A stretch of DNA of 64,000 nucleotides from Centroscyllium fabricii. Lineage: Eukaryota. The stretch's first letter is position 1. Every line of letters begins with the position of its first letter. The translations under genes and the position numbers were made by a program. Under the pieces are notes generated by a model. It worked only from the letters and a program-made list of their open reading frames with translations, was not told where the DNA came from and ran no database searches. The DNA is taken from assembly GCA_051313645.2 (NCBI GenBank), contig JBNRSN020000010.1, positions 68,324,001 through 68,388,000 of the forward strand, given 5' to 3'. Positions 1 through 48,624 of this stretch are shown here, in pieces.

Positions 1-1223
1 CGCCCAGCTTGACCGGCTGAAAACCCTCCATGATCGCCTCTGCCACCCGGGTGTCACCAGACTCGCCCACTTTGTAAAATCCTGTAGCCTCCCGTACTCC
101 ATCACGGAGATTAAGGCTATGACCAAAGAGTGCCCTGTCTGCGCCGAGTGCAAACCCCAATTTTACAGGCCAGACATGGCGCACATCATCAAGGCCACCC
201 GCCCCTTTGAACGCCTGAGTGTGGACTTCAAAGGCCCCCTCCCCTCCACTGACCGCAACTCGTATCTCCTCACGGTCATAGACGAGTTCTCACGCTTCCC
301 CTTTGCCTTCCCCTGCCCAGACATGACGAGCGAAATGGTGATAAAGCACTTCACCGCGCTGTTCGCCATTTCTGGGCTCCCCAGCTACATCCATAGCGAC
401 CGGGGGTCGTCGCTCATGAGCGACGAACTGCGTCAATTTCTGCTTCAGAAAGGGGTTGCCTCAAGCAGAACAACCAGTTACAACCCCCGGGGGAACGGCT
501 AGGTAGAAAGGGAGAACGGGACTATCTGGAAGGCGGTCAACCTGGGCCTGAAGTCCAGAGGCCTTCCAGTCTCCCGTTGGCAGGAGGTCCTCCCAGATGC
601 GCTCAATGCCATTAGCTCTCTGTTGTGTACCACTACCAATTCAACACCTCACGACCTATTATTTTCCTTCCCCTGGAAGTTGACTTCGGGGACAGCACTC
701 CCACTGTGGCTTAGAAAACACGTCCGCGGCCACAAGACCGACCCCCTGGTGGAACGGGTGCATCTGCTGCACGCCAACCCGCAGTATGCCTACGTGACAT
801 TCCAGGACGGGCGCGAGGAGACGGTATCGATCAGGGACCTGGCCAGTGTTGGCCGTGAGCGCGCTAAATGAGCGCGCGTTCACGAGCGCGTTCACATTTT
901 TGTGAACGCTGAACGAGCGCGCTCTTTCCCAGCAGCCTGAGCGAAAACGTGAGCGTCGCTCGTTTTGGAGGGAGTGAGCGGCGCTCTTCACGAGTCTGAA
1001 TCGTTGCTGCCTGGGTCGGCGTCTCCAAGCCATCGGGACGGTAAGTGTCTCTGTCTCACTGNNNNNNNNNNNNNNNNNNNNNNNNNNNNNNNNNNNNNNN
1101 NNNNNNNNNNNNNNNNNNNNNNNNNNNNNNNNNNNNNNNNNNNNNNNNNNNNNNNNNNNNNNNNNNNNNNNNNNNNNNNNNNNNNNNNNNNNNNNNNNNN
1201 NNNNNNNNNNNNNNNNNNNNNNN

Positions 1224-32794: not shown

Positions 32795-34046
32795 TGCGAC
32801 GGTTTACTGCAACCTGCCTCATCCAGGAACTGCCCCTAAATAAGTTGACTTCCTATTTCACCGCGCTGCTCTAAACAGTCATTGATCCAATGGTCAGAAG
32901 TTATTCTATATTGAACTAGGCTATATATCCCTTCTATAAGAACAGGGTTCTTTCAGTAAGTCACTGATTTCTATCCGACTTAGGGTCTGTAGGTTAAAAC
33001 CGTAAGAAGAACCTGCTATGGTCCTGAATCGAGATGAGTGCTTAGTGCCGAATGCGGTCTATTTTGCTAACTTAAAAGTATTTGAATCAAGACTGGTTGT
33101 TGGATATAAATGGTTCAAGAGATCTTGAATTATTTATTTTCTTTTAACATTTGCATTTTAGTTCGGTCATATATATATTTAGATTGTTACAAGGTTATAC
33201 TTTATCACAGAAAATAATGTAATAATTAATAACAGTAGTACAGCAAACCAACATAAAAGTTTTTCATCTCACCAACGTCAGGTGCTTTTCGGATTGGAAG
33301 CTAAACCATCGATCAAACAACAAGCCTGTATGTTTGAGAGGAAAGCTGCATTCACTCGAACTCTGGAAACAGCTTAGAAGCTGGAGTCAATTCGATCGAT
33401 CGATTTGACTAGCTATTTAGCTGGAGCCAGCCTGATCTTGATGGCTGACTAACTTTCTGTCTGAATTGGGCTGCTTTTTATACACATAAATTGCTGAATT
33501 GCAATACGTCATGCCCCCTATCTGTGGGGGGGGGGGGTCAGTTAGACACGTGGTCAATTTTTAACTTCTTTATAATATATATTTCTTTACCTTTCAAAAA
33601 CTAACTGACCTTTTGGTCATGGATTACTTCGGCCATTTTCTTAACAAGGTGTTTCCTGTTTTTGTTACAATGATATCTAAAAATTGTTAGGTCAGATCAT
33701 CACTTTCTGGGAACTGGACTTTGTGGTCAGTTGTTTTTCATACTGCGATCCTTAGGAGATAGGCCAGACTTTTCATAATGAAACTCCAGTATCCTGCCTT
33801 TCCATCTCTCAAAATAGTTCTAATCTTGTGGTCAAGCTTTCTACGCCTTCAGAGACCCACCATCTGCTCTCAAAAGGGAACTTTAGGCAATTATCATTCA
33901 AGTTAATTTGACAGGCTTTCATTCTGCATTCTAAGCAGTTTGTTTCTTTAAAAAGACATTCTAAATCAGCCCTTTTTTTCTACAAAGTTTGGAAAGTACA
34001 TTTAATCAATCTTATAGCTGCGAGAAATTAAACAATTACCGCCACA
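32795..34046 (-). repeat. 3' LTR of the foamy provirus (1252 bp)
   Basis: Near-identical to 47366-48624 (about 10 substitutions by eye plus a poly-G length difference). Preceded on the minus strand by the purine tract GAGGGGGG. AATAAA at 33133-33138 (minus). Confidence 0.96.
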
Positions 34047-34071: not shown

Positions 34072-34476
34072 CTATCTCAAGCTTCCCATCGTATTTTTTC
34101 TTAACTTTACATACACAAGAATCCATAATATAATCATACACACAATTAGTATGTTACATAGTGATAATAGACTAACAAGGGTCCATCCCATAATCATCTC
34201 GGTGTGATCCAGATTCCGGGTCGTATTTTCTGGTTTCTTTAACAGTTTCCATCCTAGGACAAGTCCTATTACTGACATAACTAATACCCAAATTATTACT
34301 GTTAAAGTCATCCATATTTTACATTTCCACAACTTTTTTAATGTCCATCTTCTAAATGGGTCATGGCTTCGTTTTGATTTCTTTTGTTTCTCCTTTAATC
34401 TTTTATTTCGTCTGGGATGTCCATCTGGCATCTTGTGCTTTGGATTAAGCTTTCTTTCTATAAAGGAAGGGTACAT
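34072..34476 (-). CDS. Accessory ORF, 134 aa, basic N-terminus plus two transmembrane helices
   Basis: RRNKRLKEKQKKSKR tract, two ~22-aa hydrophobic segments with an NTT sequon between them. Ends just before the PPT. Confidence 0.75.
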   Translation of the reverse strand: MYPSFIERKLNPKHKMPDGHPRRNKRLKEKQKKSKRSHDPFRRWTLKKLWKCKIWMTLTVIIWVLVMSVIGLVLGWKLLKKPENTTRNLDHTEMIMGWTLVSLLSLCNILIVCMIILWILVYVKLRKNTMGSLR

Positions 34477-34514
34477 AAGTTAGACTGATACTCCTAAGAG
34501 GATCAGGACTCATT

Positions 34515-36272
34515 TTACTGGCATTGTCCGGTATCTCCACTATGATTCCATTCGTCATAATATTCATCATCAGCTTCATCTTCCGATATTGATTCCAACA
34601 TGGCTAATCGTAACCACAAGGGTGTTGATGTAGAACCTCCAGTGGGGTACATAGTCATGTATTCTTCCTTTGTGAAGATATCTTCTCCTCCGTTAGCTTC
34701 ATCTCCATCTTCCTCTGAGTTTTCATAGGAAGTGTCAAATTCTTCTTTCTTCCAGTAGTATTTTTCTCGATTAGTTGTTTCCTGAGTATTTTCCCAGGTG
34801 GGAATCCAGGAAGGGTAAAAACATTCTTCCATCTCTACTTCTTCTCCGAGAGATTTCTGTTTAGTTTGTCTTTCTTCTTTCCATTTGTTAAATGGGGTTG
34901 TGATATAGGCTCCTTCTGCCCACCATATGTTTTTCAATGGTTCTTCTCTATCTTTAGAGTATCCTGTGACTCTGTTCTTTTCTTCATCTGTTAGGTCTAC
35001 ACTTTCCCATGTAGCCATTGTTATTCGATTTTTTCCTTGTCGACTCATTTCTAATTCAAAGTGATTTCTGAAGGTGTGGCTTGGTTCATTATCTTTTTCA
35101 GGACAGGGTATGTCTGTATTTATATCTTGTACCAATTTTGTCATGCCTGCTGTCAGCGGTATTGTCCATTTTTCTGGTTCATCACACAACCATTTTAAGG
35201 TTGTCAGTAGCTGAGGGTTTAATCCATGGCAATATTCCAGGGGTCTGCCTCTTTCTAGAGGTCCCAATAGGCTGAGAAATAGGGCCATTTGTTGTCCTTT
35301 TCTTTCTTCCATTATGGTAAATACTTCTCCTGCACAAGTGTGTTTTTCTCCTTCGCTTAAATCTTTTTCTTCTTCTACTGAAGCGGTTATCATAGCAAAT
35401 GATGGCCAGCATATAATATTGGGCCAAAAATGTTCTGGTTTAAGGAATATTTCTCTAATTCCTTTACATATGTCTGTCCATGTAAAACCTGTTTGTAGGT
35501 TATTATTTCTTCCCCAGATTAGTTGGCATAGTGATTTTAGTTGGTCATTTTTCCATTCTTCTATTTCTTTATCCAGTACTCCTGTTTTCGGAGCGCGTTT
35601 TGTAAAATTACTTTTTGCGTGGCTGCTGTCCCAATGATCTAGTGTATAGATTATTTTTATTCTTAAGATTATTCCTGCCTTCTTTCCTATCCTCTTACAT
35701 TTGTTGCAGCACGGTGTTTGGTTTTTGTTTGAGGTATAGCATAAGACACATTGATTTGCGTGTCCTGTTTCGTGGTATTTTATGCATACAGTTCCTGGTA
35801 CCTCCTGATTCATTGTCCACATGGTACGGGTATAGATCATTCTACATCCTCGAGCCTCGGTGATTATTTGTCTCATTAGGCCATGTTTTGCAAAAGGTAC
35901 TGTTAATGTTTCAGGAGTTGATTTTCTAGTCATTAAAGTGACTATAGTAGTTATGGGTTTATCATTGTCTATTGGTTCTTGCCATTCTGCATCTATGAAG
36001 GCCGGGTTGTGTTCTTTTTGATTATTTCTTACAACCGTGTTATCGGTTTCCTCAGTTCGGGTGAGCCATCCCTCCTTGGTCCATCCTCCTGAGGGTAGGG
36101 TGGTGGAGCGGTTGGTCCCTGAATCTGATGTACTTGTTTCAGTTTGGGATTTTTCGCTTTCCCGGTTACCAGGTAGATAACTCCTTCTACTTCCAGAAGG
36201 CCTGGTAGTTCCTGATCGTTGTTGAAGTGAGGGGAACGAGTGAAGGCTATAGCTGAGCTGCAGGTGGGACAT
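34515..36272 (-). CDS. Accessory ORF, 585 aa, Cys/His cluster and acidic C-terminus (candidate transactivator/Bet-like)
   Basis: Long open frame in viral sense with CIKYHETGHANQCVLC...CCNKC and an acidic-aromatic tail. Confidence 0.85.
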   Translation of the reverse strand: MSHLQLSYSLHSFPSLQQRSGTTRPSGSRRSYLPGNRESEKSQTETSTSDSGTNRSTTLPSGGWTKEGWLTRTEETDNTVVRNNQKEHNPAFIDAEWQEPIDNDKPITTIVTLMTRKSTPETLTVPFAKHGLMRQIITEARGCRMIYTRTMWTMNQEVPGTVCIKYHETGHANQCVLCYTSNKNQTPCCNKCKRIGKKAGIILRIKIIYTLDHWDSSHAKSNFTKRAPKTGVLDKEIEEWKNDQLKSLCQLIWGRNNNLQTGFTWTDICKGIREIFLKPEHFWPNIICWPSFAMITASVEEEKDLSEGEKHTCAGEVFTIMEERKGQQMALFLSLLGPLERGRPLEYCHGLNPQLLTTLKWLCDEPEKWTIPLTAGMTKLVQDINTDIPCPEKDNEPSHTFRNHFELEMSRQGKNRITMATWESVDLTDEEKNRVTGYSKDREEPLKNIWWAEGAYITTPFNKWKEERQTKQKSLGEEVEMEECFYPSWIPTWENTQETTNREKYYWKKEEFDTSYENSEEDGDEANGGEDIFTKEEYMTMYPTGGSTSTPLWLRLAMLESISEDEADDEYYDEWNHSGDTGQCQ

Positions 36273-37039
36273 TTTTCCGAAGTTTTTGGCGCTTTCACTC
36301 GAGGTGGGACTACGATTTTTTCAGCCGATAAGGTTTTTAAATAAAATCTAATAAAGTATAATATAAAAATACCAAGTGAAATTGTACATACTAGTCTTCC
36401 TGGTATAGTCCTTTCCCATCCTAGGAACAAAAGTCCTAAGATGTATATTCCTATCACGGCTTGTAATATGGCATTATACCTAGGTCGGTTTTCTTTATTA
36501 TGTAACATTAAAAACTTTTGTTTGTTACAGTAGGACTTGTAAGCCAGGTTTATCAATATCCATGTAAAAAACATAGCCGTGGGTATCCCATAGTCTAAGT
36601 ATTTCTTTGCTTCTGTTTCCATAAGCCACAAACTTTGTGATGTTACAGTAACTAGGCAAATTACGAGGGATATGATAAACTGCCATCTTCCTAAGAAGGT
36701 ATCTGTTTGTGTTTTATATTGTCCGTATGAGAATTGATAACTGAGGGTAATCATAAAAGGAAAGGCTGCATGATATCCTGCTTGAGTCCAGTTATGAATA
36801 TGGTTGTGGTTTCTAACAGCGGTTGTTAGGTTTTGTAGGGTTTCTCCCCCCTCACCACTGTTATAAGCCACAAATGCCTCTAAAGCAGTCAAAATACAAA
36901 GCGGTAGTGCCATCATAACGTAATATGGGCCTCCCGATTTTCTTAGTCGTTTAAATTTTAGCCTGAGCACTACGATGATTATGACCATGATAAATAATGT
37001 GTAATTAACGACACATCCCCAGTATCCTTTGATTCCCAT
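36029..37039 (-). CDS. Accessory ORF, 336 aa, predicted seven-pass membrane protein with PTAPPPY tail motif
   Basis: Seven hydrophobic segments in aa ~5-232 and a polar tail with CPTC and PTAPPPY (36095-36115). Confidence 0.85.
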   Translation of the reverse strand: MGIKGYWGCVVNYTLFIMVIIIVVLRLKFKRLRKSGGPYYVMMALPLCILTALEAFVAYNSGEGGETLQNLTTAVRNHNHIHNWTQAGYHAAFPFMITLSYQFSYGQYKTQTDTFLGRWQFIISLVICLVTVTSQSLWLMETEAKKYLDYGIPTAMFFTWILINLAYKSYCNKQKFLMLHNKENRPRYNAILQAVIGIYILGLLFLGWERTIPGRLVCTISLGIFILYFIRFYLKTLSAEKIVVPPRVKAPKTSEKCPTCSSAIAFTRSPHFNNDQELPGLLEVEGVIYLVTGKAKNPKLKQVHQIQGPTAPPPYPQEDGPRRDGSPELRKPITRL

Positions 37040-37077: not shown

Positions 37078-37554
37078 TTACAGATTCAATAAATCGTCCA
37101 ATGTAGGAGCATAAGAAGGTTCATATGTGAACTCTTGATTCCATTCAAAGGTGAAATTCACAGGTTCTGATATGAATTTTTCTTCTATTTTGTTTCGGTA
37201 CTTCTGGTTCTTTACATTGAACTTTTTCCAGTTTATTTGCCCCTTGGTTAATGCAAGAGGTGGTTTCTGAGGTGGAAACAGTGTTTTCCATTAGCATTCT
37301 TTTTGGTGAGACCCACGTCATCAAATTTGGGCTAAATTTTGCAGTATTGAGTGGGATCCCATCAAAGGTTTGATAAGTGCCGGAAATCCGGTTTTTTCAC
37401 TTATTTGAAAGTCAAAAGCTTGTGATTTTGATAATGTTGATGCGGCCAATTGATACATAATGATTTCATTTCTTTATTCAGGGTGTTGGTCAATTTCCTT
37501 TAGGGCTTGTTTTTGACATGTGTCACTGAATTGGTGATTTCTGAGCGAATTCAT
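37078..37554 (-). pseudogene. Decayed 158-codon accessory ORF immediately after env
   Basis: The ATG overlaps the env stop (ATGA). One frame runs to TAA at 37078 with four internal stops and ends APTLDDLLNL (hand-translated). Confidence 0.55.
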
Positions 37555-38855
37555 TTTCTTCGGCACAGAAGTGGTTGAAGGATTTTAATGGCCACCAATC
37601 CACCTATAGCGAACAAGCCATATTTTAAATATGATCCAAAACCCATGAAGTCGTTAAAGGAACTCATTATTCCGCCGAACATTGATCCAAAGAAGCCAAA
37701 TATGCCTGAGAAGGCATCCCCCATAGCGGGTAATATGTCTCCCAGAGCTTCTCCTAACGCATTAAAAACGTCTGCTATTTGTGCACCATATGAGGTGTCT
37801 ATCTCATTTAGGTGTGTTCTTAGGTTATTGATTTGTTCCTTAATGTTCCAATTGGTATAGGTGACTATTAATGTTGTTTTTCTTGTGGCTGCTAATACGT
37901 CAGCTAATTTTGAGATCATGATATTGATATCATAATCAATTTCTGGTATTATTGTAATGGTGTTTTTACCTAATTGAGGGTATAGTGTTTTACCACAGCA
38001 TTTAGCTTTAGTACTAGGGGTAACCATCCAGGTACCTATTCCCATTTGACAGCTATCATTACATGTTTTAATTGTCGAGATCATATATGATCCGTTATTT
38101 AATGAAGTGATTTGATCATAATCCTTGTCTATAGGGATCATTTGGACAGGACATGCTCTGCGTGAGCAGGGTTCAATTTTATCCCATTCGTAGAGCATAT
38201 TCCCTTGGCGTTCTGTTCTAATAATTCCTTTGTACGGGTACATGTTTCCTGATTCATTGAAGGCTATGGTGTAATCATGTTTAATTTTCTGTTTATAACA
38301 TGATTTACCAGTACAGTAAGGTACTCCGTGGTTGATCATGGTGTAGGTTATGTTGTTCATTGTATCCTCCGTAATCATTGGGATGGATATTATAATTTGT
38401 AGTTCTACGGTAATGGCATAGTATATTTGGGTACCTCGTTCGGTGACTGGTTCAACTATAACTATGTTCATTAACCGACAATTTGCCATGATAATTTGGG
38501 TGCTACTGATGTATTGATATTGACTTAATACGTCCCTTGGTATCCAGTCTATTTCCGGAATTCCCAATCTCATTGCATCTTCTGTTTTTTGTATAATAGT
38601 ATCTATGATTTTATCCTGGTTGGCCGTATTAACTAAATTTAGAGCTTCTATGATTTGTTCTAGGCCCATAATATGGGTTTCGTGTAGGGCGAGAGAAAAT
38701 GCAGTTAAATTTTGTTGATTAGTAGTTAGATCGTTTACCCATTCTCCTAGGTCACTTAATATGTCAGTAGACATTTGTTGTCCCTTTTTTAAATTTTCTG
38801 GGACATTTCCCGTTGTTAAAGTTATTATTGCTAAGAGGAGAAGGACGATCAACAT
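37551..38855 (-). CDS. env: Env TM (fusion) subunit encoded as a separate ORF with its own signal peptide
   Basis: MLIVLLLLAIITLTTG leader, heptad-like region, IDW motif, Cys-rich ectodomain, amphipathic membrane-proximal region, C-terminal anchor and short basic tail CRRK. Confidence 0.85.
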   Translation of the reverse strand: MLIVLLLLAIITLTTGNVPENLKKGQQMSTDILSDLGEWVNDLTTNQQNLTAFSLALHETHIMGLEQIIEALNLVNTANQDKIIDTIIQKTEDAMRLGIPEIDWIPRDVLSQYQYISSTQIIMANCRLMNIVIVEPVTERGTQIYYAITVELQIIISIPMITEDTMNNITYTMINHGVPYCTGKSCYKQKIKHDYTIAFNESGNMYPYKGIIRTERQGNMLYEWDKIEPCSRRACPVQMIPIDKDYDQITSLNNGSYMISTIKTCNDSCQMGIGTWMVTPSTKAKCCGKTLYPQLGKNTITIIPEIDYDINIMISKLADVLAATRKTTLIVTYTNWNIKEQINNLRTHLNEIDTSYGAQIADVFNALGEALGDILPAMGDAFSGIFGFFGSMFGGIMSSFNDFMGFGSYLKYGLFAIGGLVAIKILQPLLCRRK

Positions 38856-38867
38856 GTTACCTTATTC

Positions 38868-40544
38868 CTAAATTACAGTAGTATTTATGAAGGTCCACTG
38901 AAGAGCCGGCGTTAGGTCGAAGAACGTCAGTTTTTCTGGCTCCCGGTCTATCTCGCTGCACCTTAGTGCTGTGCCAAAATGACAGGAAATATAGTGAGTT
39001 AAATTATCGCCTATATCTACTTTGGTCAGTTTATTTGTTTCTTTTGGTACTTTGAATACCCATTTTATCTCTGATTCCCAGTTTTCAATGCTGGCTTTAA
39101 TTTGTTCTATTGTGGGTTTAGATTTGTCTTTGTTTAGAGTTTCATTTCTCATTATGTTCCACACTGAGTGCCAAGTAGCTTGTGTTAATTTTCCAGTTTC
39201 TATTTTGTTAAAGTTTTTGTTAAGAGGTCCTACTCCCTCCTTTGCCCTATATATTTTCCATGGAAATTCGATTATATTTTTAGTCTGTCCTCTGGCATTC
39301 GTAATATTTGTACTACATTTTCCGTATCCTGTTTCATTTTTACAGGTGACTTGTCCCCAGGTTTTTTTGCTGTTATTTTTTAACATCGTGTAGTAGGGTC
39401 TCATACAGAATTCAGGGGGATCTGAGTTTCGGAAGAAATTTCTACCAATAGGCTGTTTTAGCTTGGTTTTTAGGTCTTCTATGGGTCTGATACTTTTATC
39501 AAACCATCTGCCGTAGTTTCGGTTATCACATATCATATGCCATCCTTGCTCAATTTTTGGGATGGTGTATGTTATATTTCCAACGTTTTTGGTTAGAAAT
39601 GTTTCGGCCGGGGAGAAGAAAACCCTTTTGGAATTAGTATAACTGCAATTACATCGACTACTTTTACTTTCGCAACTTGTAGTCTGTTGGCACCATAATT
39701 TTTGTTGGTTTATGAGCCATAATGACTGGTGATGGGTTCCTTCATCTCCCATATTATCATTCTGGTAAGGCCATGCACAATGGTCCATCCTCACAGACTG
39801 AGGTTGTCGGGTAGTTTTTACAAAGGTAATTAAGCAGTGTAGGTATTTATTTATATCTTCTCTTTCTTCCTTAAATTGTGGTAATTTAATCTGAGGAGAT
39901 AACTTCATGATCCTGTCAGAAAATTCTTGTAATTTTCGTCTAACCATTATCCGGGGAGTTCCTGCTTTAAGATTCATCATATTAATGATTATTCCTGAGT
40001 CCAAGACTATTTTTAAAGGGACTAATACTTGTCCCTGGTCACGGTAAATAGGCTTGGGTTCCTTTTTCCAGCAGATACCATTTTTTATTGGTCTAACTTG
40101 ACACAAAGGGTGATTGTTATTATTGTTATTATTTGTGTCATTTTCTAGTGCTGACTGTGTCATAGGTCGGCAGGATTGGTTTAATGTCCCTGCTACTGCC
40201 GATACTAGTATTATTCCGATAAGGAATAGAAAAAGTATGGTAAGTAGCAGTACCGTGAAACATTTTTCACATCGTCCCATATTTTTATGGGTCTGTTCTT
40301 TTCTGGCGCAGTTAGTGATGTTAATTTTCACCTCTTCTTTTGGTCGATTGTTTTGACCTTTCATTTTATTAAATTTATTCTGTAGGGGTTTCTTATTTAT
40401 TATTACTTTTCTCCTTTTTTGTAATCTATTCCTTATGTGTCTAAAAGGATCTATTAGTGATTCTAATTCGATAGTGGTCTGGTAATGATTTGGTTCCGCA
40501 GGGATCTGGTCTTCCTCCAGGCGGTTCATCCAATCGCGACTCAT
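38868..40544 (-). CDS. env: Env leader peptide plus SU subunit (type II membrane topology)
   Basis: ~95-aa cytoplasmic N-terminus, hydrophobic anchor and many N-glycosylation sequons. Foamy SU-like blocks IKNGICWKKEPKPI, DHCAWP and HYISC. Confidence 0.88.
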   Translation of the reverse strand: MSRDWMNRLEEDQIPAEPNHYQTTIELESLIDPFRHIRNRLQKRRKVIINKKPLQNKFNKMKGQNNRPKEEVKINITNCARKEQTHKNMGRCEKCFTVLLLTILFLFLIGIILVSAVAGTLNQSCRPMTQSALENDTNNNNNNNHPLCQVRPIKNGICWKKEPKPIYRDQGQVLVPLKIVLDSGIIINMMNLKAGTPRIMVRRKLQEFSDRIMKLSPQIKLPQFKEEREDINKYLHCLITFVKTTRQPQSVRMDHCAWPYQNDNMGDEGTHHQSLWLINQQKLWCQQTTSCESKSSRCNCSYTNSKRVFFSPAETFLTKNVGNITYTIPKIEQGWHMICDNRNYGRWFDKSIRPIEDLKTKLKQPIGRNFFRNSDPPEFCMRPYYTMLKNNSKKTWGQVTCKNETGYGKCSTNITNARGQTKNIIEFPWKIYRAKEGVGPLNKNFNKIETGKLTQATWHSVWNIMRNETLNKDKSKPTIEQIKASIENWESEIKWVFKVPKETNKLTKVDIGDNLTHYISCHFGTALRCSEIDREPEKLTFFDLTPALQWTFINTTVI

Positions 40545-40788
40545 CGTCTTAGGGAGCTTTAAATCCTTTTGATACTGGTCTACAGTTATCTATCGATATA
40601 GTTCTGCTTGCGCCGGAATCAAGTCCTATGGTCACTGTGCGTTCTCCAACAGAGGTGACCTGTTGAGGAAGGCGAAATCTTGTTTTAAGTGCTTTTCCGG
40701 CTTTGTGAGACTTTTTCTCCTGTATAAAATCCCCTACCTGGGGTTGCCAGTGTTTAAAAGTGTTATTCTTTACTGCCTCCTGCGCCCT

Positions 40789-41310
40789 TTCTTCTGATAT
40801 TTTTGACATCATGTCTCTTAATTCGTCTCTTAAATCGGTATCATACAAACTATTTGGATTACTTAGTTTTGTATGAAGTTGTATCCCAAATTGTAAAAAG
40901 TAGGGGGTAATATGTTTCTCTGGTCCTAAGACATTCAGGGGAGTATTATTTCTTCTGATATTTTAGTCATCATATCCCTTAGTTCCTCCCGTAAATCGGT
41001 ATAGGGTACTGGGGTTACTTAATATTCAAGGGAGTTTTATTTCTTCTGATATTTTAATCATCATATCCCATAGTTCCTCCCGTAAATCGGTATAGGGTAC
41101 TGGGGTTACTTAATTTTATATTTAACTGAAACCCATATTGTAAATAATACGAGGTCCTAAGATATTTTAAATTTATATTATATTTAACTGAACACCATAT
41201 TGTAAATAATACGGGGTCCTAAGATATTTTAAATTTATATTATATTTAACTGAACACCATATTGTAAATAATACGGGGTCCTAAGATATTCAAGGGAGCT
41301 TTGTTAATTG
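40789..41310. repeat. Complex tandem duplications inside integrase (62-bp unit ~3x; ~73-bp block 2x plus a diverged third copy)
   Basis: CCATATTGTAAATAATACG(G/A)GGTCCTAAGATATT occurs three times at 62-bp spacing. TTCTTCTGATATTTTA...GGGGTTACTTAAT occurs at ~40950 and ~41041. Confidence 0.9.
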
Positions 41311-43978
41311 CCAGCTGTACATCACTCGACAGTTTAGCCCACTATGCTCCGCGTACGGTGCACATCTTAGATATGGCCATTTTGGCATCTTGATTTTTCC
41401 TTTCTACCATACCACTTAATTGTGGATGTAAAGGGGTGCTGAATTCCAATTTTATGCCCCGTAAATTGACAGAACTCGAGAAAGACGCCAGAAGTAAATG
41501 CAGGGCCTTAATCGGAATGAATTATCACGGGTGGTCCAGCACCTGTAAGAGCCATGTTGACGGCTTAAATAGCATCAGTGCTTAGTACAGCTTTTTGTGG
41601 GCCCTAACTGTGTTTTAGGAGGTGCAGACATCAACAATAACCAAGACATATACGTTTATTCGACTGTAAGGGGGGTTTCCTTTTGAAGGCGGCAATGATC
41701 CAATAAAGTCTATTTGCCATTTTATTCCAGGTTGGTCAGGTTTAATTTGTACTATATGAGGCGGTCTAATTATGCCAGCCCCTTTAGTAAATTGTAGGCA
41801 GATTTGACAATTAGTGACATAAGCCTTACATTCTTCCAATCAGAATTGCCACCAGTATTTTTACATTAAATGGGATGCAGTAGTCTTACACCCCCATGGG
41901 TTGCTCCTGTCCCTGTATGAGCTTCTTTAATTAGGCTTTGTCTGTCTTTTTCAGGCAGTATTATTTTACATTTATAATCCGGTTCTCCTGCCTTTTTAAC
42001 CAATATGTCTCCGTTATTTCCCACTGAATATACATAGTATGAAGGATATCCCTTAGGATAAATTCCTTTAATGAGTTCTTTTTGAGTGTTATCTTGTTTT
42101 GCTGTAACAGTTGCTCTTGTAACAATGCAAATTTTTAATTATCTCAATCCAATGGTAGAGTCTAGTGCCTTTTTGGCAGCCAGATCTGCTAGTCCATCTC
42201 CATAAGCATGTATTCCTGTTTTCTGATGTGCAGGTACATGTTTAACCATTAAATTTGGCATATTTCTTATAAATTGATCTATTTTTCTCCACCATTTTAC
42301 GTGGAGTATAGGTTTCCCTCTATGATCCTTGAAACCATTATCCGTCCAGTCTGTAAGCAATTCACTACAGCCTCTATGGCAATAGAGGCTGTCGGTACAT
42401 AGTAATATTGCTTTTTATTTCTATCCTGGGGGTAACTCCCTTTAAAGCTCTATATATGGCTATTACTTCGGCCATTTGAGCGGAGTGTTTTTCCCCTACA
42501 TAATATAATTCAGTATGGATAGGTATAAAACCATCCGGGGACCAATGTCCTTTAACAATACCGGCTCCATCTGATAATATGGCTGCTTGGGCTGATCCAT
42601 CAGCATATATTGCTAAGTTGAATTCATCTTCAGGCTTAGTCTCTCCCTTGTCTTTTTGTTTTGAGCTTGCAAACTCGGGTAGGTTCCAACTAACTACTGG
42701 TGTATTGGCGTCTTTGCACCATTTAATGGGGGTATCTATTTTAACGATATCCCATTTATCATATCTGGCCCTATGTACTTTGTGATCCCTCTTGATGCTG
42801 TCCCTGCTGTAATTTAGTTCAGGTAGGTTAGTATATACATATATACTGCCGTTTCCTTGATACTTACTAATATGTATCAGTCCGTTTGTTAACAGAGTAA
42901 GAGTTTCTTCTAGTTTTTGAAACTTTTGTTCTGTCCTGCTAAAATTCATTGAATAATACTGAAAAGTGGTACTCACTATTTCAATGTGAGGGGTTTTCTT
43001 TCCCTCAGTTTCTCTTTAAATTCTGAAGTCAATCCTCTTCCTTGATCTGTTATTTCTACTCCTAAAAAGGTTACTGTACTTTTGGCTATAGTTGATTTTT
43101 TCAACGTTACTTTATATCCGGTATTCATTAGAATTTCTAGGATTTTGTGTAGAACTATAAAGTGTTCCTCTAGGCCAGTAGTAGATATGTATATATCATC
43201 TACATGAGTATTCTTGCCTTAAGGGGGCTAATACTTTTAATACTTCTGAGGAGAAAATTTGCGGTGAATTAACATATCCTTGGGGTAATCTTGTCCAGCA
43301 ATATTGTTTTCCTTCTGGAGAAGTAATTGCTGTGTATTTGTAATCATTCTCATGTATGGGGTGACTCCAAAATCCATTGGCTAGGTCAAGAGTAGTTTTA
43401 TATTTTTTCCTTTCAAGTTGTAAAGTTTGAGTGGTCAGATTCAGAAAGGCTCCTTTGTACGATACCGAAGCTTCGTTTAGAGCTCGATAATCACAGACGA
43501 GTCTAAATATTCCTGCTTCTTTCTTTTTTACCCCTATTATCGGGGTATTGAACTCTGATGATTTTTCTATCAGAACACCTTGTTTTTCTAGATCTTTAAT
43601 TATTTCCGTAACCGCCCTTCTGGCTTCTTTTTTGTGTATTATATATTGTGGGGGTACAGTGAATCTGTTCATTCCCGTCGGATCAGGGGTTTTTTGATGG
43701 AGAAATCCACAGTGATTTCTATGTTTTTGCCATACTTCCCAGTGTGTCTGTACTAAGTTTTTGATTCTTGCTCTTACTGTTGGATTTGTTTCAGTATCCA
43801 TTTGGATCTGTAGGTGTTCTGATCGGTCATCAGGGTTTTTAATCAATAACCCGTATCTATTGATCTCTGATATTCCTAATACCATTTTTACATCTAGTTC
43901 TTGTTCTATATTTGGTATTCCAGCGGCCCAACATTGAAATGTGGTGCCGTTGTCTAATTGCACTGATACTTTGTAGGT

Positions 43979-45240
43979 CCAGGGTGGCATCCCCGCCACC
44001 CTGGACCAATACCAGTTCGCCTACCGGGGGAACAGATCTACAGAGGATGCTATCACTACGGCTCTTCACTCTGCACTAAACCACCTGGATAGCAAAGATA
44101 CATATATCAGAATGCTGTTTATTGACTACAGCTCAGCATTCAACACCATCGTCCCCAGCAAATTGTCTACCAAACTCCTCACCCTCGGCCTGAACACCTC
44201 CCTCTGCAACTGGACCCTGGACTTCCTAACCAACAGACCACAGTCTGTGAAGTTAGGCAACCTCACCTCCCCCCCCCTTACCCTGAACACGGGGGCCCCA
44301 CAAGGTTGTGTGCTCAGCCCCCTCCTCTACTCCCTCTTCACTCACGACTGTGCGGCTGTCCATGGCTCCAACACGATCATCAAGTTCGCGGATGACACCA
44401 CGGTGGTTGGCCAGATCACCAACAACGACGAGTCAGCCTACAGGGATGAGATCCAGCACCTTGTGGGTTGGTGTGCCGACAACAACCTGGCACTGAACAC
44501 CAAGAAAACGAAGGAGATCATAGTGGACTTCCGGAGGACTGGAAGCAGAAGACACACACCCATCTTCATCCAAGGGGCTGAGGTGGAAAGGGTGTCCAGC
44601 TTCAAGTTCCTCGGGGTCCACATCTCGGAAGATCTCTCCTGGTCACTAAACACCTCCTCTCTGGTTAAGAAGGCCCAACAGCGCCTGTACTTCCTTAGGA
44701 AGCTGAAGAAAGCCAGGCTGTCATCCGGCATCCTCTCCAACTTCTACCGCTGCACAATAGAAAGCATACTGACAAGCTGCATCACTGTCTGGTATGGTAA
44801 TTGCACTATCTCGGGCCGGAAAACCCTGCAGCGGGTAGTCAAAACTGCCCAACGAATTACCGGTACACAGCTACCGTCAGTGGAAAGCATCTACCTCAAA
44901 CGCTGCTTACGGAGGTCTATGAACATTATAAAAGACCCCACACACCCCAGCCACAGTCTGTTCGCCCCTCTGCCCTCCGGGAGACGCTACAGAGCAATTT
45001 GCACCCGCACGACTAGATTTCAGAACAGCTTCTTCCCCAGGGCTGTCAGCCTCCTGAACTCTAAAAAGAAACTCCGGTACCTGCACGCCTGATAATGAAC
45101 TTTACTGTATGCAATTTATTTATGTAATTTATTTATTTTGTCTACACTACTCTCGGGAGAGTTGAGTCTTCGTCTCGTTGTATTGTACTAGTACTCTGCA
45201 ATGACAATAAAACTTGAATTGAATTGAATTGAATTGAATT
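43979..45240 (+). mobile_element. 5'-truncated Rex1/Babar-type LINE inserted antisense into the viral protease
   Basis: RT motifs [22 protein letters not shown] and KFADDT, AATAAA and a (TGAAT)n tail. Removing it restores the protease frame VVDTYKVSV. Confidence 0.9.
44112..45092 (+). CDS. Rex1-type reverse transcriptase C-terminal part
   Basis: [22 protein letters not shown] and [10 protein letters not shown]. Confidence 0.85.
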
Positions 45241-47084
45241 GTATCTACTACCATTGTTTGTCCGGAGAAGCCTTTTATTTTTAATTGTTCCCCTTTTTTA
45301 CATTCTAATCTTTTGGCGAGGTCTTCATCAATGGCTGAGCCCTCTGCACCGGTATCTATTAGAGTTTGGGCCCAAAACCAATCTTTGTTTCTTCCAGTGA
45401 CCTGGGTCTTTATATATGGAAATTGATTTTCTTCTGACTCATGATGTCCCGAGGGAGGGTTGGGTGTGGCATTTCTGATCATTCTGAATTGTCTTGGGGC
45501 CTGATTATTTCCTTGTCCTCTGTTTCCTCCCCCTCTGCCTCTGCTATTTCCTCTACCCCTAGGTGGCTGTCCACCTCGAGTAGATTGGGTAGGTCCTTGA
45601 TTTCGACCTTGGTTTCCTTGGTAATTTGTTCCTTGCCTCCAGTCTCCCCCCTCATATCTAGCTCCCTGGTATGAGGTCTGAGCCTGGCCCTGGGAATTTC
45701 GGTCCCTGAAATTATAGTTTCTATTTTGATAATTTTGATTTCGTTGGAAACTCTGGGCTGGGGGCTCCGAGGCTCCGGTGGGAGTCGGGGTTCCTTGATA
45801 TCGTTGGACTCTAGGCTGGTCATTTTGATAGTTTCTTTGAGGGGCTCTAGTTGGGGGGGTGGCATCAGGTTGAACCCATCTGGGCGTATATCTCTGATCT
45901 GCCTGTGGTCTAGGCGGTCCTTGTCCTCGCACTCGGGCTCTGCCTCTAGGTGCGGGAGGTCGTGGACCCGTAGGTGCTACACCGGTCCCATATTCTCCTG
46001 TTTCTCCTCCTATTCTTGCTTTTTGTCCTACTTCTCTCGTAGGTACTGTGTATAGGCCAGCAATTCCATTAACACTGTCTGCCAATGTTATCCAAGGATT
46101 TACTCCTAGGCCTCTATCACGGATATCTGCTCTAATCATATTTTCATGTGTCCCATTATTCAATGATCTGAATACAGTATTCTTAGCTTTGTCCCAATCT
46201 AGACCTAGGGCGCCAGCTGTTTCTGCCACTGCCACTAAATCTCCACAATGTTTTATCAGATTTTTTATTATAATGTTAGTGGCTGCCTCTAAGCCTTGTC
46301 CGTATATATTCTGGTGAGCTTGTGCTAGCATTGTTAGGAAATTACCGCAATGGTGTATCTCCATTTTGAAACATGCCAGTCCGGTGGCTTTCATCATATC
46401 GCATCTTTCCTGATTTGTCAGGTTTCTCAAAAAGACACTAATCTGTTCAAAGTGGTTCAAACCATATTTTATAGCTTCCTTATCTTGTTTTGGAAAATCC
46501 GGGAATGTAGTATGGAATGATTGTACGGTAGTTTTACCATATATCGACCATGGGTCTTGTCTACGGCCTGCTCTTGCGGGACGCTCGGCAAGCCACTCGG
46601 CTTGTTCGTGGCCTGCTTGGGCTATAGCCGTAGCTGCTGTCCTTTGGTTATTTGCGGGTATTAATGTCAGACGATGGGGGGTTACTCTCTTTATCTTAGC
46701 TGGGTCTCGTGGGAAGGCATATGTAGTCATTCCGGGGCACAGAGGGTGTTCTGAAGGACGTAATTCTGATTCTAATCTTTCTATTATGCACATGTGTATT
46801 GGATTCTGAACATTTCCAGAGGGTCCAGGTCCATTTGCCCTATCATCGGGTACTTCACAATCATAATCATGCTCTGTCTCGTTGTCATAAATTATCCTTA
46901 ACGTAAACCTGACTCCTGCTGCTATTGCTCCATTATTCCTTCTATCTAATACATCGTACAGGGATTCATCTCTTGCAGCTCTTTCTACCCCGCCTCTTAA
47001 TGCTACGGGGAAATTATCTCCATAAGCAAGGGCTTGGGGTTGTACATTGGGTCTCCAGTGTTCTCCTGGAGGATCATAGGCCAT
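45241..47084 (-). CDS. gag: Foamy Gag, reading in frame into protease
   Basis: No zinc knuckle. C-terminal Gly/Arg boxes (RGRGNSRGRGGG) and YNFRDR, resembling the foamy chromatin-binding YxLRxR motif. No stop before LIDTGA. Confidence 0.9.
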
Positions 47085-47345: not shown

Positions 47346-47363
47346 GCCCCACGTTGGGCGCCA
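47346..47363 (-). promoter_or_regulatory. Primer binding site, tRNA-Lys1,2
   Basis: TGGCGCCCAACGTGGGGC, 2 nt downstream of the 5' LTR. Confidence 0.95.
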
Positions 47364-47365
47364 AC

Positions 47366-48624
47366 TGCGATGGTTTACTGCAACCTGCCTCATCCAGGAA
47401 CTGCCCCTAAATAAGTTGACTTCCTATTTCACTGCGCTGCTCTAAACAGTCATTGATCCAATGGTCAGAAGTTATTCTATATTGAACTAGGCTATATATC
47501 CCTTCTATAAGAACAGGGTTCTTTCAGTAAGTCACTGATTTCTATCCGACTTAGGGTCTGTAGGTTAAAACCGTAAGAAGAACCTGCTATGGTCCTGAAT
47601 CGAGATGAGTGCTTAGTGCCGAATGCGGTCTATTTTGCTAACTTAAAAGTACTTGAGTCAAGACTGGTTGTTGGATATAAATGGTTCAAGAGATCTTGAA
47701 TTATTTATTTTCTTTTAACATTTGCATTTTAGTTTGGTCATATATATATTTAGATTGTTACAAGGTTATACTTTATCACAGAAAATAATGTAATAATTAA
47801 AAACAGTAGTACAGCAAACCAACATAAAGGTTTTTCATCTCACCAATGTCAGGTGCTTTTCGGATTGGAAGCTAAACCATCGATCAAACAACAAGCCTGT
47901 ATGTTTGAGAGGAAAGCTGCATTCACTCGAACTCTGGAAACAGCTTAGAAGCTGGAGTCAATTCGATCGATCGATTTGACTAGCTATTTAGCCGGAGCCA
48001 GCCCGATCTTGATGGCTGACTAACTTTCTGTCTGAATTGGGCTGCTTTTTATACACATAAATTGCTGAATTGCAATACGTCATGCCCCCTATCTGTGTGG
48101 GGGGGGGGGGGGTGGTCAGTTAGACACGTGGTCAATTTTTAACTTCTTTATAATATATATTTCTTTACCTTTCAAAAACTAACTGACCTTTTGGTCATGG
48201 ATTACTTCGGCCATTTTCTTAACAAGGTGTTTCCTGTTTTTGTTACAATGATATCTAAAAATTGTTAGGTCAGATCATCACTTTCTGGGAACTGGACTTT
48301 GTGGTCAGTTGTTTTTCATACTGCGATCCTTAGGAGATAGGCCAGACTTTTCATAATGAAACTCCAGTATCCTGCCTTTCCATCTCTCAAAATAGTTCTA
48401 ATCTTGTGGTCAAGCTTTCTACGCCTTCAGAGACCCACCATCTGCTCTCAAAAGGGAACTTTAGGCAATTATCATTCAAGTTAATTTGACAGGCTTTCAT
48501 TCTGCATTCTAAGCAGTTTGTTTCTTTAAAAAGACATTCTAAATCAGCCCTTTTTTTCTACAAAGTTTGGAAAGTACATTTAATCAATCTTATAGCTGCG
48601 AGAAATTAAACAATTACCGCCACA
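47366..48624 (-). repeat. 5' LTR of the foamy provirus (1259 bp)
   Basis: Matches 32795-34046 and abuts the PBS and TSD. Confidence 0.96.
48046..48053 (-). promoter_or_regulatory. LTR TATA box (TATAAAAA)
   Basis: TATAAAAAGCAGCCC about 570 bp into the LTR, upstream of a GGTGAG donor (47839-47844) and AATAAA. Confidence 0.7.

What the first reader, a model, noticed from the sequence alone, without database searches (positions are those of the whole stretch)
37551..40544. Bipartite envelope: SU and TM are separate genes and a signal peptide replaces the furin site
Seen: LP-SU ends ...TVI TAG GAA TAA GGT AAC ATG (two in-frame stops, 12-nt gap). A new ORF then opens with a classical signal peptide, MLIVLLLLAIITLTTG|NVPENLKKG. 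There is no R-x-K/R-R after the leader anchor or after HYISC; a 37-aa extension sits there instead. Known (recalled, needs alignment): prototype foamy Env has HYTSC..RKRR followed directly by the TM N-terminus, and is furin-cleaved into LP, SU and TM. Inference: this virus made a type II anchored attachment protein and a separate type I fusion protein matured by signal peptidase. That paramyxovirus-like division of labour is not standard for retroviruses. Random decay would not be expected to create a signal peptide exactly at the TM start.
Basis: partly seen in the sequence, partly recalled or inferred. Interest (0 to 1): 0.9.

Follow-up and report, generated by a model that had tools for sequence, protein, structure and literature searches.

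The report
Foamy-like retrovirus with split envelope gene
This animal genome carries hundreds of copies of a foamy-like retrovirus whose envelope gene is split in two at the spot where relatives have a protease cut site, so the two halves likely assemble into one fusion machine that needs no activating cut.

Summary
In this young foamy-like provirus, env is two genes: ORF1 (558 aa; leader, anchor, SU) ends in TAG; 12 nt later ORF2 (434 aa) opens with a signal-peptide-like segment whose predicted cut yields the foamy TM N-terminus to the residue. 96 of 97 distinct copies examined keep both stops and the ATG (1 lacks the region); none has a continuous env. A second lineage in the same genome (74% nt, dS 1.4-1.9) has the same split with another stop codon, a 9-nt spacer and a signal peptide changed at 10 of 16 residues; both ORFs are under purifying selection (dN/dS 0.07, 0.10). 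Neither ORF has an R-x-K/R-R site. TM is likely made from a spliced mRNA (weak support). Cleavage, association and fusion are untested; structure models failed. I found no description in print, but could not read the cartilaginous-fish foamy virus paper.

The parts
38868..40544 (-). env ORF1: leader peptide + membrane anchor + SU (F2-like segment and receptor-binding-domain homolog), 558 aa
   Evidence: hhalign to six foamy Envs 149-397 vs 141-398, prob. 88.9, E 2.4e-6; top of 301 sequences against a foamy LP-SU HMM, 7.7 bits vs best of 300 shuffles 5.5; no Pfam or PDB hit alone
40203..40259 (-). ORF1 hydrophobic anchor (aa 96-114), followed by AVA|G (possible signal-peptidase site), no furin-like site after it
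   Evidence: KD peak 3.14; VSAVAGTLNQSC identical in lineage B; all six foamy Envs have an R-x-x-R at 123-139
39879..40100 (-). ORF1 aa 149-222: homolog of the foamy N-SU strands, HRC helix and linker that belong to the fusion core
   Evidence: structure roles from PMC11468914 section 6
38856..38870 (-). TAG stop, 12-nt spacer with second in-frame TAA
   Evidence: lineage B has TAA and a 9-nt spacer
38856..39060 (-). 205-nt AUG-free stretch before the ORF2 start, with a CTAAC...YYCAG acceptor-like motif at 38915-38898 (likely splice acceptor; inferred)
   Evidence: longest AUG gap of 34 in lineage A and of 31 in lineage B; 1 of 3 among 94 YAG sites with 9+ pyrimidines and a CTRAY; motif kept in B; not a synonymous-conservation outlier
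37551..38855 (-). env ORF2: signal peptide + foamy TM homolog, 434 aa (418 after predicted cut; foamy TMs 411-419)
   Evidence: PF03408 E 3.4e-21; PDB 8ozh 739-971 E 3.8e-10; hhalign prob. 98.8; landmark spacing
38808..38855 (-). predicted signal peptide, 16 aa
   Evidence: KD peak 2.15 at residue 1; 6 of 16 identical in lineage B yet still hydrophobic with small -3/-1 residues
38706..38807 (-). aa 17-50: position of the foamy fusion peptide and start of HRA; amphipathic but more acidic than in foamy viruses
   Evidence: best window vs six foamy TM N-termini, 31 of 20000 shuffles as high; 30 of 34 identical in lineage B; 4 acidic, 1 Gly/Ala vs 1 and 3-6
37563..37619 (-). ORF2 C-terminal membrane anchor
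   Evidence: KD peak 1.86 at 413
47366..48624 (-). 5' LTR (TG...CA), 4-nt target duplication GCAT outside both LTRs
   Evidence: 11 mismatches in 1252 aligned bases plus a 7-nt indel
32795..34046 (-). 3' LTR, preceded by a polypurine tract with the GGGTG border
47346..47363 (-). primer-binding site (tRNA-Lys type; assignment recalled)
40549..47084 (-). gag-pro-pol, broken in this copy by a LINE-like insertion, frameshifts and tandem duplications
34072..37039 (-). three accessory ORFs (336, 585, 134 aa) between env and the 3' LTR
   Evidence: no informative Pfam hit; present at 91-97% in other copies

Best explanation
This foamy-like retrovirus encodes its envelope as two genes split where foamy Env has its SU/TM furin site, and the two products likely co-fold in the ER into one F-type fusion trimer whose fusion-peptide end is predicted to be made by signal peptidase instead of furin. 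Shown: two ORFs, homology of ORF1 to LP-SU and of ORF2 to TM, the register of the predicted cut, absence of furin motifs, fixation in two lineages, purifying selection. Inferred: ORF1 enters the ER by its long leader anchor and supplies the F2-like strands and HRC helix plus the receptor-binding domain; ORF2 is translated from its own, likely spliced, mRNA, enters by its signal peptide and supplies fusion peptide, heptad repeats and anchor; the complex is primed from birth and is held in the prefusion state by SU until low pH triggers it (foamy fusion is endosomal, PMC11468914; the acidic face of this fusion peptide would fit a pH switch, which is a guess).
For: Split in 96 of 97 distinct copies, 6 of 6 and 1 of 1 more, and in lineage B with different stop, spacer and signal-peptide sequence. 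dN/dS A vs B 0.068 over 466 ORF1 codons and 0.098 over 433 ORF2 codons; variants shared by 5+ copies pN/pS 0.31 and 0.23, below singletons 0.48 and 0.49. Signal peptide drifts (6 of 16 identical) while the next 34 residues are held (30 of 34), the pattern of a cleaved signal before a functional N-terminus. Mature length and landmarks match foamy TM: 418 vs 411-419 aa; N30 vs 28-31; W88 vs 84-87; NGSY 238 vs 230-237. N-SU and C-SU both build the three core domains in foamy Env (PMC11468914), and ORF1 holds the N-SU homolog. AUG-free stretch with acceptor-like motif in both lineages. A 1994 paper's title reports uncoupled expression of MLV SU and TM (reference line in PMC3917443; that it gave some function is recalled, paper not held).
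Against: ORF1 homology is weak (prob. 88.9; 7.7 bits; none alone in Pfam or PDB) and unresolved beyond about residue 430. An HMM of foamy TM 1-150 did not detect ORF2 17-170 (0.3 bits, below many shuffles); the register rests on an ungapped block test and anchored global alignments (0-15 of 500 shuffles as high). The fusion-peptide segment is less hydrophobic (0.16 vs 0.20-0.39) and more acidic than in six foamy viruses. The acceptor region is not a synonymous-conservation outlier. Only one genome was seen; lineage B is one decayed copy. pN/pS site counts ignore transition bias, so absolute values are low-biased.
Confidence: 0.68

Rival explanations
1. One reading: ORF1 is a free type II attachment protein and ORF2 a self-sufficient fusion protein, as with paramyxovirus H/HN/G and F.
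For: Two separate genes; ORF1 has an N-terminal anchor with no furin site and the RBD homolog; ORF2 is type I with its own signal peptide.
Against: ORF2 starts at the fusion peptide and so lacks the F2-like part; that part is in ORF1 and is structural in foamy Env. Paramyxovirus F keeps F2 and F1 in one gene, and its attachment protein is unrelated to F (established knowledge).
Confidence: 0.1
2. The split proteins are kept for budding, receptor interference or another role, and TM no longer fuses; the family spreads inside cells or by helper complementation.
For: Acidic, Gly/Ala-poor fusion-peptide segment; several hundred copies (about 700-830 first-look candidates) are typical of intracellular spread; a fusogen primed in the ER risks early triggering.
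Against: Whole ectodomain, cysteines and the fusion-peptide segment are under strong purifying selection across dS 1.4-1.9 and during the expansion; high-copy intracellular ERVs usually lose env (established knowledge); the hydrophobic face and amphipathic moment (0.43 vs 0.29-0.40) are kept.
Confidence: 0.14
3. One Env polyprotein is still made by stop readthrough or by a splice that rejoins the frames, and the hydrophobic segment is an internal cleavage signal.
For: Both spacers keep the frame (12 and 9 nt); AGGTA just before the ATG in both lineages looks weakly like a splice donor.
Against: Two in-frame stops in lineage A, a different stop in B; no stable RNA structure at the junction (z -0.93 and +1.56); a single hydrophobic segment after a luminal SU would act as a stop-transfer and put the TM ectodomain in the cytosol (inference from ER topology).
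Confidence: 0.05
4. Post-integration decay or assembly error: a founder copy gained stops and was amplified.
For: The window copy is defective in pol; most copies examined were the closest hits.
Against: Same split with other letters in a lineage at saturated synonymous distance; no variant at the stops in contigs of up to 2 samples; no furin site left at the junction; selection on both ORFs.
Confidence: 0.02

Closest known systems
Foamy virus (Spumaretrovirinae) Env gp130, PF03408, PDB 8ozh/8rm0/8rm1
   Same: Long cytoplasmic leader with membrane anchor, N-SU segment, RBD cysteine and aromatic motifs, TM of equal length with matching landmarks, C-terminal anchor, short tail; accessory ORFs after env.
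   Different: Two genes instead of one; no furin site at LP/SU or SU/TM; new signal peptide; acidic fusion-peptide face; one Trp in the leader, no WxxW; Gag-Pro-Pol in one frame.
Paramyxo/pneumovirus F (class Ib fusogens)
   Same: Same core fold as foamy Env by PMC11468914; ORF1/ORF2 boundary equals the F2/F1 boundary.
   Different: F2 and F1 come from one precursor cut by a protease; receptor binding is on a separate unrelated protein, here it is inserted in the F2-like chain.
Teleost foamy-like ERVs (AciFLERV/AcERV, AliFLERV, XmERV, PfERV, PrERV, LcERV, DrFV, PpERV)
   Same: One or two conserved ORFs of 421-465 codons (plus a 334-aa one) between pol and env under purifying selection; env-like protein with an N-terminal signal peptide; no furin site found in four of them, which the authors call hard to explain (PMC5210030, PMC5512871).
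   Different: [quoted passage not shown] Homology to ORF1 could not be tested here.
Uncoupled MLV SU and TM (engineered; Ragheb and Anderson 1994, title seen in a reference list only)
   Same: SU and TM made from separate reading frames.
   Different: Laboratory construct of a class Ia Env whose SU is not woven into the fusion core; here natural, selected, and in an intertwined F-type fold.

Membership tests
Foamy viruses (Spumaretrovirinae) | RT closest to foamy Pol | tested here: met
   PDB search: five Pr125Pol/foamy chains at E 4e-34 to 4e-32, next HIV RT 4.5e-19; no tree built
Foamy viruses (Spumaretrovirinae) | Env homologous to foamy gp130 (PF03408) | tested here: met
   ORF2 E 3.4e-21; ORF1 weak, prob. 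88.9; the only 6 hits among 1.84 billion representatives are 980-999-aa Envs
Foamy viruses (Spumaretrovirinae) | Single env ORF cut by furin into LP, SU, TM | tested here: not met
   Two ORFs; no R-x-K/R-R in lineage A; all six foamy Envs have both sites
Foamy viruses (Spumaretrovirinae) | Long leader peptide with membrane anchor | tested here: met
   95-aa N-terminal part, anchor 96-114
Foamy viruses (Spumaretrovirinae) | WxxW Gag-binding motif in the leader | tested here: not met
   One Trp (W5) in residues 1-95
Foamy viruses (Spumaretrovirinae) | 4-nt target duplication, GGGTG at the PPT/LTR border, tRNA-Lys PBS | tested here: met
   criteria from PMC5210030; PBS identity recalled
Foamy viruses (Spumaretrovirinae) | Pol in its own frame, made apart from Gag (recalled) | tested here: not met
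   14 of 150 listed copies have a stop-free frame of 1,700+ codons across the Gag/protease junction (counted by eye)
Foamy viruses (Spumaretrovirinae) | Gag_spuma and Spuma_A9PTase domains | tested here: inconclusive
   Not detected in either lineage's Gag; protease hits only generic aspartyl-protease families below cut-off; divergence may hide them
Foamy viruses (Spumaretrovirinae) | Accessory genes after env with an internal promoter in env | tested here: inconclusive
   Three ORFs, no Tas/Bet match; synonymous-invariant stretch with a TATA-like motif at the env 3' end
Paramyxovirus-type attachment + F pair | Fusion gene holds both F2 and F1 | tested here: not met
   ORF2 begins at the fusion peptide; the F2-like part is in ORF1
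Paramyxovirus-type attachment + F pair | Attachment protein unrelated to F | tested here: not met
   ORF1 is the foamy LP-SU homolog
Class I fusogen | Fusion peptide freed at the N-terminus of the membrane-anchored subunit | tested here: inconclusive
   Register fits; cleavage predicted only; segment less hydrophobic than in foamy viruses
Class I fusogen | Trimeric prefusion complex and membrane fusion | not testable with these tools
   Single-chain models too poor to use

The most novel reading that the evidence does not exclude
A natural class I viral fusogen whose two interwoven subunits are encoded by separate genes and matured by signal peptidase alone, with no priming protease at all (the leader may be released the same way), kept by selection in a retroviral lineage; the same design may explain the 'accessory gene plus furin-less env' of several fish foamy-like viruses.
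Probability: 0.5. Interest if true: 0.88.

Novelty: new variant of a known kind. Interest (0 to 1): 0.78.

Why it matters
Synthesis as one precursor followed by a priming cut is the textbook rule for class I fusion proteins (PMC11468914, introduction), and for the F-type fold both halves build the same sheets and helical core. A selected, two-gene version would show that the precursor link and the priming protease are dispensable, and makes a long-standing question testable: whether the covalent precursor is needed for folding into the metastable state, or SU alone can clamp it. It also offers a concrete re-reading of unexplained ORFs between pol and env in fish foamy-like viruses, and warns that annotation pipelines will call such env genes broken.

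Tried and rejected
Continuous env in other copies: the two frames longer than 438 codons among 150 scored copies were checked; 972 is a downstream LINE insertion, 453 keeps the split. Relatives outside this genome: none for ORF2 at 238-760 aa, none for ORF1 120-558 at 306-977 aa, only foamy Envs and one SFV-like fragment with the alignment (10 hits among 7999 scored), none in metagenome or viral contigs; ESM Atlas gave only sub-0.9 generic viral-glycoprotein leads. AlphaFold: ORF2 alone mean pLDDT 36.7, ORF1 with 8 rows 32.0; no fold search was run on them. The ORF1-ORF2 complex was not folded: no verdict. MAFFT scattered the ORF2 N-terminus over full-length Envs, and a TM 1-150 HMM missed it. 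No RNA holder listed, so splicing is untested. Junction RNA structure: no signal. Synonymous conservation at the acceptor: not an outlier. First duplicate filter failed (109 loci), redone by sequence identity (97). 3 of 9 divergent-gag copies had no env in the 10 kb fetched. Earlier scan notes: nothing. Literature: 9 searches showed no report of a split foamy env; PMC9972966 (cartilaginous-fish EFV) and PMC236812 were not held; no supplements were read, and genome maps there may bear on novelty.
Full report
1. Observation. On the minus strand ORF1 (40544-38868, 558 aa) ends in TAG; 12 nt with a second in-frame TAA follow; ORF2 (38855-37551, 434 aa) opens with a 16-residue hydrophobic segment. 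Neither ORF has R-x-K/R-R; six full-length foamy Envs fetched here have a furin-like site after the leader anchor and another before TM.

2. Context. The ORFs lie in a provirus with 1.25-kb LTRs (47366-48624 and 32795-34046; 11 mismatches in 1252 bases plus a 7-nt indel), a 4-nt target duplication, a Lys-type PBS (assignment recalled) and a PPT with the GGGTG border. RT is closest to foamy Pol. This copy's pol is broken by a 1.26-kb LINE-like insert and other lesions. The 7.2-Gb genome gives about 700-830 first-look candidates for env; these are not copy numbers. The host looks like a cartilaginous fish from recalled SINE likeness only; I did not test this.

3. Is the split fixed? Of 109 loci from four searches, 97 were distinct by sequence; 96 keep both stops and the ATG and 1 lacks the region. 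These were top-scoring hits, so they lean to close copies (median 98.7% identity). Nine copies picked for divergent gag gave 6 with env in reach, all split. Of 150 scored copies the two with unusually long frames are not continuous envs. Contigs of 4 runs (at most 2 samples, 1 study, possibly including the assembled one) list no variant at the stops or the ATG at a 2% threshold.

4. A second lineage. The same contigs showed a low-depth diverged relative, located at one place in the genome (74% nucleotide identity). It ends ORF1 at the same residue with TAA, has a 9-nt spacer, and starts ORF2 with a signal peptide identical at only 6 of 16 residues but still hydrophobic with small residues at -3 and -1; the next 34 residues are 30 of 34 identical. 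Pairwise Nei-Gojobori: ORF1 dN 0.13, dS 1.93, ratio 0.068 (466 codons); ORF2 dN 0.13, dS 1.36, ratio 0.098 (433 codons) (one stop codon per ORF skipped, this copy is decayed). Within the large family, variants shared by 5 or more copies have pN/pS 0.31 (ORF1) and 0.23 (ORF2), against 0.48 and 0.49 for singletons (equal-rate site counts, so absolute values run low). The split therefore predates both lineages and both halves were under selection: it is a viral design, not decay.

5. What the halves are. ORF2 is foamy TM (PF03408 E 3.4e-21; PDB 8ozh; hhalign 98.8). Its predicted mature length (418) and landmark positions match six foamy TMs, and of all 34-residue windows in ORF2 the best match to their N-termini starts at residue 17, the predicted signal-peptidase cut (score 11.8, next 4.3; 31 of 20000 shuffles). 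I had noticed this register by eye before the test, and an HMM of TM 1-150 did not detect it, so the support is moderate. ORF1 is foamy LP-SU: residues 149-397 align to 141-398 (hhalign 88.9; best of 301 against an LP-SU HMM; collinear motifs). Beyond about residue 430 the alignment is unreliable, so the claimed 37-aa extension cannot be placed.

6. Mechanism. In the solved foamy Env, domains I-III are nested and built from both N-SU and C-SU, which correspond to F2 and F1 of paramyxovirus F, with the RBD (217-543) inserted before the furin site (PMC11468914; sections 6 and 9 and passages read). ORF1 149-222 is the N-SU part. The break is thus F2/F1, not attachment/fusion, and ORF2 should not fold alone. 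Most likely (inferred) the chains are made separately, meet in the ER and co-fold; signal peptidase gives the free fusion-peptide end that furin gives in foamy viruses; SU holds the prefusion state until low pH. The fusion-peptide segment keeps its hydrophobic face but has four acidic residues and one Gly/Ala (foamy: one and three to six), which may mean a pH switch or lost fusion. ORF1's anchor is followed by AVA|G in both lineages, so SU may be anchored or released by signal peptidase; either way no furin motif is used. ORF2 cannot be reached by scanning (34 upstream AUGs in ORF1); the longest AUG-free gap in both lineages (205 and 202 nt) lies right before its AUG and holds a shared CTAAC...YYCAG motif, 1 of 3 such among 94 YAG sites. 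A spliced mRNA is the best guess; stop-restart is not excluded; no RNA holder was listed. Readthrough is unlikely: two stops, no structure, wrong topology.

7. What failed. Single-chain AlphaFold models were unusable; the complex was not folded; no relative outside this genome other than ordinary foamy Envs was found.

8. Comparison. It works like a foamy Env and is best filed as a foamy-like ERV; it fails three canonical foamy features (single furin-cut env, WxxW, separate Pol frame). Teleost foamy-like ERVs have conserved ORFs between pol and env, env-like proteins with N-terminal signal peptides, and in four cases no furin site, which the authors could not explain (PMC5210030, passages and section 13; PMC5512871, passages and section 6). 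That is a lead; against it, no TM motif was found in those ORFs and four other elements have a putative SU-TM site. Amphibian EFVs are described with ordinary gag-pol-env (bioRxiv 2020.12.18.423569, passages). Passages or term look-ups in bioRxiv 2021.11.23.469661, PMC10699275, PMC8227577 and PMC6955096 added nothing. Nine searches found no report of a split foamy env, but the 2023 paper on cartilaginous-fish endogenous foamy viruses was not held, so the family, and perhaps its two-ORF map, may be in print.

9. Verdict. Real, fixed, selected split of a foamy-type envelope at the SU/TM boundary (about 0.95); co-folded, signal-peptidase-matured fusogen as the mechanism (0.68). New variant of a known kind; interest 0.78.

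Noticed in passing
window 45147-47084 and family copies: Gag and protease are in one frame; 14 of 150 listed copies have a stop-free frame of 1,700+ codons across the junction, i.e. a single Gag-Pro-Pol ORF with no stop or frameshift, unlike foamy viruses (separate Pol; recalled). How Gag:Pol ratio is set is unexplained. Lineage B has a frameshift there (one decayed copy).
   Followed up: partly
window 37562-37637 (-): ORF2 codons 407-432 have an unbroken run of identical synonymous codons between the two lineages and a TATA-like TATTTAAAA at 37631-37623: likely an internal promoter or other cis element for the accessory genes.
   Followed up: partly
window 34072-37039 (-): Three accessory ORFs (336, 585, 134 aa) without informative Pfam match; the 336- and 134-aa products look like multi-pass membrane proteins by eye; the 585-aa one has an acidic tail.
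   Followed up: no
window 43979-45240: LINE-like RT fragment (RVT_1, ALKBH8_N; ORF 44112-45092, + strand) inserted into pro-pol.
   Followed up: partly
window 40788-41295: Tandem 62-nt and 54-nt duplications inside integrase in this copy.
   Followed up: no
L120-L128: Copies whose gag-pro region is only 67-81% identical in protein to the window (one at 91%) carry env at 94-98% where env was in reach: possible recombination or a deletion-bearing subfamily.
   Followed up: no
L092:1-10000, L093:1-400: Lineage B is a single decayed copy with a SINE-like insert in the leader region of ORF1 and another retroelement right after env; its accessory genes were not in the fetched stretch.
   Followed up: partly
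window 1062-1223: The only N run in the window; far from the provirus.
   Followed up: no
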